A stretch of DNA of 62,810 bases, filler included, from Kipferlia bialata (lineage: Eukaryota), in the NCBI GenBank assembly GCA_003568945.1. It is 8 parts of 7 records of this genome, joined end to end, with 100 filler letters (N's around TTAATTAATTAA, not from the genome) between each part and the next. Parts side by side here need not be neighbours in the genome. Positions count along the whole stretch, not along the records: positions 30,385 to 42,620 come from BDIP01001114.1; 7 more parts are not named here. One strand, 5' to 3'. Each line of letters opens with the position of its first letter. Position 1 is the first letter of the stretch. Shown here piece by piece: positions 30,781 through 33,100 of the stretch. The translations under genes were made by a program, and so were the position numbers. The notes under the pieces were generated by a model. The model did no database searches and was not told the DNA's origin. It worked only from the letters and a program-made list of their open reading frames with translations.

Positions 30781-31424
30781 GACATCAGAGTTCCTGGCAC
30801 AGAGCAAGAGGCTGACATACGGTATGCTTCCCAGCTTCTCTATATATTCCCTGTCTTCACGCCTGAATCTCCCTCTCTCTCTCTCTCTCTCTCCCCCCCC
30901 CTCCCGCTCCGGCCTGCTGTACTCATTCATATGTCCAGTCCCGTACCCTCTATCTCCTTCATTCTCCCTCTTTCAGTAGGTGTTGTATATGAACCCAGTC
31001 ATTGTTCTCCATACAGACACACTATCTTGAGTATGTGTTGTATAGTAATCCAGTCATTGTGATGATCTTTATCCTGCACCCCCCCCCTCTCTCTCTCTCC
31101 CTTACATAATAGGCCTGCCTCACTGACTCTCTGTCCTATCTATGTAGTAGTACATACTCCATATGCATTTACTGTCTTCATTATTCATTAACTGCTAGGC
31201 CCACCTAATAGGCTATCAGTCCATGTCGAGCTAACCACTGCCCCCCCGCCCCCTACCTCCACCTCTCCCCCAATATATCTCTCTCTCTCTCCCCTATGTA
31301 TATACCTCCTGCTACGTACTTACCAGGCCCCCGTATGATAAGGCCCACACACTTAGCAATATACCTATATCACAGTAGGACCTCCCAATAGACTCTCTGT
31401 CCATGTTGAGCTGCCCACTGCCAG

Positions 31425-31472
<48 letters not shown>

Positions 31473-33100
31473 TATCATTAGGCCCCCCTAACCGTCTCTC
31501 TGTCCATGTAGAGCTCCCCACTGCCAGACCTCTCTCTCTCATATATATACACCTCCTGTCACTTACTAACACACACTCTCTCTCCCTTACATAATAGGCC
31601 CTCCTAACCGTCTCTCTGTCCATGTTGAGCTGCCCACTGCCAGACCTTCTCTCTCTCTCTCTATGCCTCCCCTATATATATACCTCATGATACTTTCTCA
31701 GTTACATTCTCCCACTCTCTCTTCCTTGCTCATATAAGGCCCTCCCAATAGACTCTCTGTCCATGTTGAGCTACCCACTGCCAGACCACCCGGTGTCACA
31801 AGGGACGCAGCTGGATACAGGTACTATAATACTATATACATAGAGAGAGAGTATAGGTAGTATATGTATGTATATACATATAGTATATATATATATAGAG
31901 AGAGAGAGAATGTATTTATACCCACTGCCAGACCACCCGGTGTCACAAGGGATGCAGCTGGGTATAGGTATTTATAGAATATGTAGTATATAGTATATAT
32001 ACTATATATATATATATGGAGAGAGAGAGAGAGAGAGAGTATTATTTATATATACCCACTGCCAGACCACCCGGTGTCACAAGGGATGCAGCTGGATACA
32101 GGTATAGAAATATGTATATAGTGAGTATAGTGATATAGTATATTCATACATATAGTATATATATATAGTATATACTTGTACAGTATATATAGTAGTGTAG
32201 AGTGATTATTTCCAGTGTAGTGTCAATGTATATATGTGATTATATGCATATTCATATACATGTATGGCCAAACACCTTAGGTCCTGTACCCCAAGCTTAG
32301 TACTGTATACCGGTATATTGTATACCATATCCTGACTATACCATGTGCCATTTATGCTATATGTATGTTCCTATCCCCCCAGGTTCCTGTGCCGCATGGA
32401 GAGACAGAATCTCTCTCTCTCTCTCACTCTATCTGTTTCTCTCTCTCTGTCTATGGTATATATTCGCTAACTGCTTAGGTTTCTGTGCCGCATGGAGAGG
32501 CAGTCTCTCTCTCTCTATATATATATATGAATTCATATGCTGTTTTACTCATACTACTCATACTGACACCTTAGGTTTCTGTGCCGCATGGAGAGGCAGG
32601 GGCTCAGGCTAGCGGCAGAGGAGGTAATACACACACACACCCACACACACACATGAATATATATATAAATATACATATAGACAATATATACATATATATA
32701 CGGAGAGACAGGGACTCAGACTGGCGGCAGAGGAGGTGACAACGTATTTAATATGAACACTGTGTATATTATTATACATATCTGACTGACATACGGGCCG
32801 CAAGGCGCAGGTTCATCACTTATTATGCGTATGTGTATCTTGTAAATATGCCTTCTATTGTATATATCTATCTGTATATATATTGACATACAGGCATGTA
32901 GGCGCAGACACACTCCCCTGGTGACACCCAAGCCATGTGCCATTCATTTCAGGTATATATATACTGTGTGTATAAATATAGATATATATATAGGTAGATA
33001 CATATACATATACATGCACTTATATATACACAATCTGATTAGTGAATTTATATTTGTATATATGTATATGTCTGCCCTGGTGCGCCATTCACTTCAGGCA

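What the first reader, a model, noticed from the sequence alone, without database searches (positions are those of the whole stretch)
31113..32101. Five half-exon and exon copies encode the same peptide with near-saturated synonymous variation
Seen: the exon at 31739 begins GC CCT CCC AAT AGA CTC TCT GTC CAT GTT GAG CTA CCC ACT GCC AGA (GPPNRLSVHVELPTAR). Echoes at 31598, 31482, 31379 and 31199 swap Pro CCT/CCC/CCA, Asn AAT/AAC, Arg AGA/CGT/AGG, Leu CTC/CTA, Ser TCT/TCA, Val GTT/GTA/GTC and Leu CTA/CTG/CTC. Only one replacement occurs (P>T, at 31199). The outermost copy (31113) has decayed to a stop. Donor-side echoes differ only by GAC>GAT, GGA>GGG and TAC>TAT. Inference: neutral intronic copies should show mostly non-synonymous differences, so these fragments are, or recently were, filtered at the protein level.
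Basis: partly seen in the sequence, partly recalled or inferred. Interest (0 to 1): 0.92.

Follow-up and report, generated by a model that had tools for sequence, protein, structure and literature searches.

The report
Introns archive old exon halves
In the free-living flagellate Kipferlia bialata, many exons are flanked by stacked half-exon copies that differ from the working exon mostly by silent changes, likely because each is a former working half-exon left behind when DNA repair copied in a version from a genetically distant partner, which would make these introns a record of past alleles and of hidden sex.

Summary
Confirmed, and far wider than reported. The window is Kipferlia bialata. 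The exon at 31739-31820 has five acceptor-side and two donor-side half-exon echoes: 96 codons, 22 synonymous, 3 amino-acid changes, 1 stop. 'Near-saturated' overstates it (pS 0.28). Across 8 hand-built gene models, 68 of 96 exons carry 145 echoes. For the 130 intact ones dN/dS against the exon is 0.12 (0.09-0.17); copying followed by neutral decay gives 0.35-0.62 in simulation. Each unit is a half-exon with a real-looking splice site plus an intron-length (about 75 nt) TA/CT-rich spacer. Reads bridge four focal junctions; spliced RNA over three neighbouring exons skips their echoes. Outermost copies decay (11 of 34, against 2 of 51 inner), and echoes that cannot be spliced in still show 0.06, so they were coding recently rather than now. 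Best reading (inferred): repair of breaks inside short exons from a divergent homolog leaves the old half behind, and allelic conversion overwrites and extends the arrays. No second isolate was available, so the allelic source is untested. An earlier scan note saw neutral exon echoes in a sea urchin (not checked). I found no description in print.

The parts
31739..31820 (+). Working exon (GPPNRLSVHVELPTARPPGVTRDAAGYR), AG before and GT after
   Evidence: present in named protein P0011
31598..31646 (+). Acceptor-side echo 1, 5 differences in the first 44 nt, all synonymous; followed by a CT run
31482..31529 (+). Acceptor-side echo 2, 7 differences, all synonymous
31379..31427 (+). Acceptor-side echo 3, only 2 differences although further out than echoes 1 and 2
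31199..31242 (+). Acceptor-side echo 4, 6 synonymous differences and P>T
31113..31136 (+). Outermost acceptor-side echo, decayed (two replacements, stop)
31919..31967 (+). Donor-side echo 1, three synonymous differences; preceded by a GA run; has an inner CAG that the public annotation uses as an acceptor
32053..32101 (+). Donor-side echo 2, one synonymous difference; preceded by a GA run; same inner CAG
31647..31738 (+). Spacer between echo 1 and the exon: CT/TA-rich, ends in the working acceptor; example of the intron-length spacer of each unit
30781..42218 (+). Host gene, 26 exons in one open frame of 529 residues, 50 echoes at 21 exons; divergent MCM-like fold is a lead only
38692..38799 (+). 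Exon missed by the public annotation; partner of the recoded echo
38885..38940 (+). Donor-side echo with 11 consecutive codons changed, all synonymous, including all 4 serine TCN/AGY switches of the data set
40801..41212 (+). Exon 40905-40990 with echoes on both sides that share four synonymous variants in 12 nt which the exon lacks
12358..15628 (-). Zinc-type dehydrogenase-superfamily gene (P0012), 21 echoes at 5 of 6 modelled exons, dN/dS 0.05
306..12186 (-). 34-exon open chain of 884 residues, 51 echoes at 25 exons, dN/dS 0.15
16923..18187 (-). ARF-like GTPase gene, 4 echoes, 4 synonymous and 0 replacement differences
   Evidence: Arf match below the curated cut-off
50681..52484 (-). 3' part of a SNF2-like gene (name from recalled motifs), 9 echoes at 6 of 8 exons; its 12 upstream exons have none
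60655..62735 (-). 7-exon open chain, 6 echoes at 4 exons

Best explanation
The echoes are half-exons with their own splice site, stacked beside the working exon at about 105-nt spacing, and they are likely former working halves left behind when a break inside the exon was repaired from a divergent homologous chromosome. Steps. (1) Shown: exons are short (median 65 nt) and the intron next to an echo is usually not a copy of the intron next to the exon. (2) Inferred: a break in an exon can pair with the homolog only through the exon; one end copies the partner's half-exon, its splice site and most of its roughly 75-nt intron. (3) Inferred: if copying stops before the next exon the new strand is end-joined, probably by polymerase theta with TA/CT additions, to the other end, so the partner's half becomes the working one and the resident half stays in the intron. 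(4) Inferred: only joins that leave the echo with a single splice site survive, and exon definition then picks the compact true exon. (5) Inferred: later recombination with other haplotypes mis-pairs exon with echo, adds units at the inner end and overwrites tracts in exon or echo with other functional alleles. (6) Shown: outer copies decay. The silent differences are therefore allelic differences between once-functional sequences, about 23% at synonymous sites, and the replacements are mostly later decay.
For: dN/dS 0.122, bootstrap 0.088-0.173 over 66 exons, outside the 0.35-0.62 of cis copying plus decay, with 2 stops against 10-12 expected. Changes private to one echo are still 56 synonymous to 28 replacement, so the bias is not just change on the exon's lineage, which gives 15 to 0. 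Replacement differences are AT-polarised, synonymous ones are not (Fisher p 0.017). Echo acceptors keep a branch-point-like motif, 38 of 54, like exon acceptors, 51 of 66, unlike other intronic YAG, 97 of 718. Spacer length equals ordinary intron length (median 74.5, n 126, against 76, n 42, KS p 0.45) and is nearly independent of echo length. In 3 of 25 two-sided exons the upstream and downstream echoes share variants that the exon lacks, four in 12 nt at 40905: the working exon was overwritten. Synonymous changes cluster in tracts (70 adjacent pairs against 48 +/- 4.5, 0 of 5000 permutations). The focal array fails a four-gamete test and is not ordered by divergence (5, 7, 2, 7 differences by rank). 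Simple repeats sit mirror-wise at the breakpoints: a GA run within 20 nt before 10 of 76 donor-side echoes against 2.2% of intron windows, a CT run after 13 of 54 acceptor-side echoes against 9.7%. K. bialata is listed with Spo11, Dmc1, Hop2 and polymerase theta and without Ku70 (PMC8516963 supplement rows); fornicates lack Rad51A and NHEJ (passages); Dmc1 tolerates mismatches (abstract openings).
Against: No second isolate was found, so no donor allele has been seen; the sequenced material looks nearly homozygous over 3.9 kb. In 19 of 21 echoes identical to their exon over 19 nt or more, flank identity ends within 9 nt of AG or GT, and flank similarity does not track exon divergence: allelic introns would have to be far more diverged than synonymous sites, or conversion must stop at exon edges. 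Beyond 12 nt only 6 of 41 and 5 of 49 flanks beat the 95th percentile of random pairs. Spacers are much richer in AT and dinucleotide repeats (72%, 31%) than echo-free introns (54%, 5%), which fits new filler as well. The rise of synonymous change towards the splice site is pooled only (92 against 56 of 317 codons; sign test 28:17, p 0.14). Only 1 of 8 arrays with three or more echoes fails the four-gamete test. Eleven consecutive silent changes with four serine switches at 38885 are more than ordinary polymorphism readily gives. One gene has an 85%-identical paralog that carries one of its echo variants.
Confidence: 0.55

Rival explanations
1. Each unit began as an identical copy made in cis (staggered break or slippage, about 35 nt duplicated plus new low-complexity filler); the silent differences came later, when conversion or crossover with divergent alleles overwrote the exon or the echo. 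Same allelic source, different first step.
For: Flank homology mostly ends within 9 nt of the splice dinucleotide; spacers are compositionally unlike ordinary introns; mirror CT/GA runs at breakpoints; 15 of 85 long echoes have no synonymous difference against 7.4 expected; one unit at 39269/39529 is a true 260-nt tandem duplicate with 90% identical intron; staggered-break repeats with inserts are described for Daphnia introns (PMC4202315 passages) and rice (PMC7407515 passage).
Against: New filler would have to supply a working branch point and acceptor for the live exon, and it does not explain why spacers match intron length with none under 30 nt or why the duplicated part stops at the splice site; acceptor flanks keep partial homology (0.61-0.72 against 0.34-0.42 at the first seven positions).
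Confidence: 0.25
2. Echoes are under purifying selection now, either as translated alternative exons or as back-ups that are often re-promoted when an array collapses.
For: Inner echoes have dN/dS 0.06; splice signals are intact; the public annotation P0011 splices both focal donor-side echoes in frame; 48 of 130 echoes could form in-frame cassettes.
Against: The 33 echoes with no usable inner site give 0.06 and the 82 that cannot be in-frame cassettes give 0.12; sites near the breakpoint are no commoner than in control windows (48 of 130 against 116 of 390); spacing is even modulo 3; one RNA contig, depth 4, joins the full exons 32894, 33441 and 33755 and skips four echoes; annotation P0012 uses only full exons; outer copies decay. 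Re-promotion by collapse is not excluded by these tests.
Confidence: 0.1
3. The donors are paralogous gene copies elsewhere in the same genome rather than alleles.
For: P0013 is 85% identical to P0012, identical over its last 57 residues, and has the alanine seen in the echo at 12802.
Against: Only 1 of the 7 replacement differences in that gene's echoes matches the paralog; the focal exon finds one protein only (weak by the tool's own note); echoes occur in all eight modelled genes.
Confidence: 0.05
4. Mis-assembly of several haplotypes or strains into tandem copies.
For: Short-read assembly through simple repeats; two letters differ between window and reads; part of the focal region has no listed contig.
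Against: Contigs cross echo-spacer-echo joins at depth like the exon, and no contig shows an echo's codons running on into the rest of the exon; intact exons in several haplotypes could not create joins from mid-exon into CT runs; decay is ordered by position.
Confidence: 0.02

Closest known systems
Internal (partial) gene duplication and intron gain by tandem genomic duplication (Rogers-type AGGT; Gao and Lynch 2009, recalled, not held; review PMC3443670, passages read)
   Same: Short duplications that include exon sequence and a splice site; the intron at 47126-47220 looks like the AGGT case.
   Different: There the copy starts identical and decays neutrally; here most exons of affected genes carry arrays, the intron part is not a recognisable copy, and differences are 70% synonymous.
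Staggered double-strand-break repair in new Daphnia pulex introns (PMC4202315, passages)
   Same: Direct repeat of exon-end bases at the far side of an AT-rich insert.
   Different: Those repeats are 4-12 bp and make new introns; these are 20-60 nt, stack up to five deep, leave intron positions unchanged and carry a coding signature.
Tandem duplications and haplotype switches from SPO11 double cuts in mouse meiosis (bioRxiv 10.1101/2020.06.23.168138, passages)
   Same: Breaks on two chromatids, aborted gap repair on the homolog and end joining give duplications that mix haplotypes.
   Different: Kilobase events at hotspots, mostly in ATM mutants, not tied to splice sites; no 10.5-nt periodicity is seen here.
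Mutually exclusive or cassette tandem exon duplicates such as Dscam arrays (recalled)
   Same: Tandem exon-derived copies with low dN/dS.
   Different: Those are whole exons with two splice sites and are translated; these are halves with one site.
Introner elements (PMC9860276, word search only: Kipferlia not named)
   Same: Marine protist with many introns and a repeated genome-wide process.
   Different: Spacers share no family sequence or termini; the repeated part is each gene's own exon.
Silent pseudogene archives for antigenic variation (vsg, vls, pilS; recalled)
   Same: Untranslated partial gene copies that exchange sequence with the expressed copy and keep coding character.
   Different: Not one surface-antigen locus: it affects housekeeping-type genes exon by exon, and changes are silent.

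Membership tests
Neutral internal tandem duplication | Whole unit is a head-to-tail copy, intron part included | tested here: not met
   Flank identity ends within 9 nt in 19 of 21 identical echoes; met only for sister spacers (10 of 26 donor-side) and the 260-nt unit at 39269
Neutral internal tandem duplication | Copy diverges without regard to codons (dN/dS about 0.5 against the exon) | tested here: not met
   0.12 observed, 0.35-0.62 simulated
Alternative (cassette or mutually exclusive) exon duplicates | Each copy has both splice sites and keeps frame | tested here: not met
   82 of 130 cannot form an in-frame cassette; 33 have no usable inner site
Alternative (cassette or mutually exclusive) exon duplicates | Copies appear in mRNA | tested here: inconclusive
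   One RNA contig skips four echoes at neighbouring exons; no RNA contig laid on the focal exon; annotation P0011 includes two
Insertion with target-site duplication (nested insertion of a whole exon, or transposon) | Left and right copies share one breakpoint with a consistent overlap | tested here: not met
   Overlap -68 to +26 nt in 25 two-sided exons, permutation p 0.077
Introner or MITE family | Inserts share sequence or terminal repeats across loci | tested here: not met
   Self-search of the window gave 4 distant hits, none between spacers (low-complexity masked)
Spo11 double-cut duplications | Lengths in steps of about 10.5 nt (feature recalled) | tested here: not met
   Rayleigh p 0.13 at 10.5; 0.045 at 10.0, uncorrected for four periods; microsatellite change could blur it
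Aborted homolog-templated repair plus polymerase-theta joining | Pathway genes present (Dmc1, Spo11, PolQ; no Ku) | not tested
Aborted homolog-templated repair plus polymerase-theta joining | Working half and spacer match another allele; echo matches the resident one | not testable with these tools
   No second isolate

The most novel reading that the evidence does not exclude
Kipferlia runs a routine exon-replacement process: at mating or nuclear exchange, half an exon plus an intron end is taken from a deeply divergent partner and the displaced half is kept in an ordered array, newest inside, as a reservoir that can be swapped back. Tracts such as the 11 recoded codons at 38885 would reflect selection for, or a mechanism of, silent recoding, for instance escape from sequence-guided cutting. 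One genome would then hold a dated archive of each exon's past alleles.
Probability: 0.15. Interest if true: 0.95.

Novelty: new variant of a known kind. Interest (0 to 1): 0.8.

Why it matters
If the silent differences are allelic, a single assembly shows that a free-living fornicate recombines with partners about a quarter diverged at synonymous sites. Whether and how fornicates (Giardia's relatives) have sex is an open question, and this gives a direct test: thousands of echo-exon pairs would yield diversity, the strength of purifying selection, conversion-tract lengths and a map of hot and cold genes without a second sample. It also shows what double-strand-break repair does to a gene-dense, short-exon genome that lacks NHEJ and Rad51A, offers a source for this lineage's long introns and possibly some new ones (124,912 introns against a handful in diplomonads, PMC5874029 passage), and warns that the public gene models include echoes as false exons.

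Tried and rejected
Nested insertion of a whole exon with a target-site duplication: my first reading, from the 14-nt overlap at the focal exon; rejected because overlaps range from -68 to +26. Fixed total unit length: spacer does not shrink as echo grows. Helical periodicity: not supported. Fast change on the exon's lineage alone: most differences are private to echoes. Hidden recoded echoes missed by nucleotide search: a protein-level scan from every AG and GT found one weak extra row, and amino-acid identity beyond the breakpoints falls to 8 of 127 by the fourth codon. A gradient of replacements towards the breakpoint (26 of 352 against 10 of 291) vanished when the three nearest codons were dropped (17 against 16). 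Other isolates: two metagenome scans found no relative; no RNA holder listed. Pfam gave nothing for P0011 or the SNF2-like exon. Gao and Lynch 2009 is not held. PMC9097270 passages gave nothing relevant. Reads were laid on 30700-34640 only, so the junctions of the 38885 and 40905 arrays are unchecked.

Full report
Source. The window is several contigs joined by N-padded linkers; the finding lies on the piece 30385-42620. A kelch ORF finds Kipferlia bialata paralogs at 32-53% (5 of 10 hits), the focal exon matches P0011, a K. bialata hypothetical protein on a 12,236-nt contig, the length of this piece, and a second gene matches P0012 of the same species. K. bialata is a free-living fornicate with 124,912 annotated introns (PMC5874029, passages). 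P0011 has no Pfam match; atlas look-alikes are MCM-type proteins at 0.88 and TM about 0.6, a lead only.

Observation. Over 96 codons: 70 identical, 22 synonymous, 3 replacements, 1 stop, pS 0.28, pN 0.025. All but one replacement and the stop are in the outermost copy. Read contigs of run X1 cross most of the joins at even depth, and an RNA contig of X2 (depth 4; RNA status is the tool's guess, but it is spliced) joins three neighbouring full exons and skips their four echoes. 31771-32065 has no listed piece.

Extent. A self-search gave 197 near, same-strand hits over most of the window. I built eight gene models by hand, 96 exons, frames set by open-frame continuity; one candidate exon was dropped and one acceptor moved in the longest model to keep it open. 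The model of the second gene agrees with P0012. These genes were chosen because they showed echoes, so 68 of 96 is no genome-wide rate: the 12 upstream exons of the SNF2-like gene have none and 55-60 kb has almost no near hits. The scan gave 154 candidates; I dropped 9 as cross-hits, leaving 145; 130 still sit on an ungapped diagonal with their AG or GT and were used for codon counts, the other 15 count as broken.

Selection signature. 1326 codons: 1031 identical, 217 synonymous, 76 replacements, 2 stops; differences by codon position 66, 33, 236; dN/dS 0.122; shifted frames 1.64 and 3.29; bootstrap by exon 0.088-0.173. Both sides agree (0.13, 0.12). Neutral change would be 26% synonymous. Simulating an identical copy that then decays while the exon stays under selection, at the same pS, gives 0.35-0.62 and 10-12 stops. 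So each echo was itself coding sequence over most of its history apart from the exon. Where another echo equals the exon, private changes are 56 synonymous to 28 replacement; where all echoes agree, differences from the exon are 15 to 0.

Then or now. Outermost copies are broken in 11 of 34 arrays, inner ones in 2 of 51 (p 5e-4); dN/dS is 0.06 inside and 0.14 outside. Replacement differences run from GC in the exon to AT in the echo 39 to 16, synonymous ones 81 to 75. Echoes with no usable inner splice site give 0.06 (33 echoes), those that could be in-frame cassettes 0.13 (48). This fits silent differences inherited from functional sequences plus later decay, not translation. The two focal donor-side echoes are an open case: they could be in-frame 36-nt cassettes and P0011 includes them.

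Anatomy. Successive copies are 106 nt apart at the median (quartiles 96-120, n 130). The spacer is 74.5 nt, like echo-free introns at 76 (10 of those 42 introns had approximate ends), never under 30, and far richer in AT and dinucleotide repeats. Echo acceptors keep branch-point-like motifs (38 of 54; motif pattern is my own from the window's introns). Yet the intron beside an echo is rarely a copy of that beside the exon: 19 of 21 echoes identical to the exon lose flank identity within 9 nt. Upstream and downstream breakpoints are independent. CT runs follow acceptor-side breakpoints and GA runs, the same on the other strand, precede donor-side ones. Synonymous changes come in tracts; at 38885 eleven consecutive codons differ silently, with all 4 of the serine class switches among 106 serine pairs. 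At 32575, 37319 and 40905 the echoes on both sides share variants absent from the exon (two further rows there were TA-repeat matches and were dropped).

Mechanism. The focal exon exists in at least five versions 2-9 changes apart in 44 nt. The simplest source of many functional versions of a single-copy exon is alleles. With 65-nt exons between introns that do not align, a broken end can pair with a homolog only in the exon; copying across the splice site into the partner's intron and joining before the next exon inserts half an exon plus most of one intron, which is the observed unit, and leaves the resident half with its splice site. Copying through to the next exon would leave no trace, and capturing the far splice site would make a harmful exon, which bounds the spacer near intron length. 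Mis-pairing of exon and echo in later rounds adds units inside and overwrites tracts. These steps are inferred. They suit the reported toolkit: no NHEJ, no Rad51A, Dmc1 instead (PMC8516963 passages), with Spo11, Hop2, Msh2, Msh3 and polymerase theta listed for K. bialata (supplement file 6 rows; one scanned supplement could not be read). The main rival differs only in the first step (cis copy with new filler); together the two allelic readings carry about 0.8. Against them: no donor allele has been seen, the material looks nearly homozygous, flanks are more diverged than synonymous sites, and one gene has a paralog that shares 1 of 7 echo replacements.

What is known. Tandem duplication over splice sites, staggered-break repeats and inter-homolog end joining are each described (passages). 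Membership in neutral internal duplication, alternative exons, target-site insertions and Introners fails on tested features. Searches for Kipferlia with intron, exon, repeat, meiosis or ploidy terms and for partial exon duplication or duplicated splice sites with conversion showed no paper on this pattern in their listings; the genome paper has no occurrence of 'duplicat', 'heterozyg' or 'ploid' and the intron paper's four Kipferlia passages concern spliceosome parts. The library lacks most subscription papers. An earlier scan note describes exon-end echoes in a sea urchin gene judged neutral; I did not check it.

Verdict. Real, window-wide, statistically strong, and not explained by neutral duplication, splicing or assembly. 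New variant of a known kind; interest 0.8, because a specialist would not expect intronic half-exons at dN/dS 0.12 beside most exons, and because it makes cryptic sex in a fornicate testable.

Noticed in passing
window 7211-7918: MITE-like insert in an intron, 58-nt terminal inverted repeats at 91%; target duplication not established.
   Followed up: partly
window 47126-47220: Intron begins with a 31-nt echo of the next exon's start, the echo's GT serving as donor: looks like intron gain by duplication of an AG|GT site.
   Followed up: partly
window 25219-27070 and 27730-29624: Inverted pair of intron-poor paralogous regions, 70% identical over 1.9 kb.
   Followed up: no
window 30781-42218: Host protein resembles MCM-type helicases by features and predicted fold (under the bar); its gene id is not among the rows of the PMC8516963 repair table, which lists no Mcm8 or Mcm9 for this species. 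Could be a missed MCM paralog.
   Followed up: partly
window 31932-32101 and 38692-38799: Public model P0011 splices in two echoes as exons and skips a real 108-nt exon.
   Followed up: yes
window 12358-15628: P0012 and its paralog P0013 are identical over their last 57 residues and both records end at the same residue, which suggests recent homogenisation or a collapsed repeat.
   Followed up: partly
window 48011-48199: The modelled exon ends at a GC donor while its echo 90 nt downstream has GT; which one is used is unknown.
   Followed up: no
window 52669-54722 and 55033-60196: Echo-free stretches with short (57-91 nt), less AT-rich introns, next to echo-rich genes: hot and cold regions, changing within one gene.
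   Followed up: partly
window 31116-31117: The only read contig here differs from the window at both bases: assembly error or a variant.
   Followed up: no
window 48922-50262: Intronless kelch-repeat ORF of a family expanded in K. bialata.
   Followed up: partly
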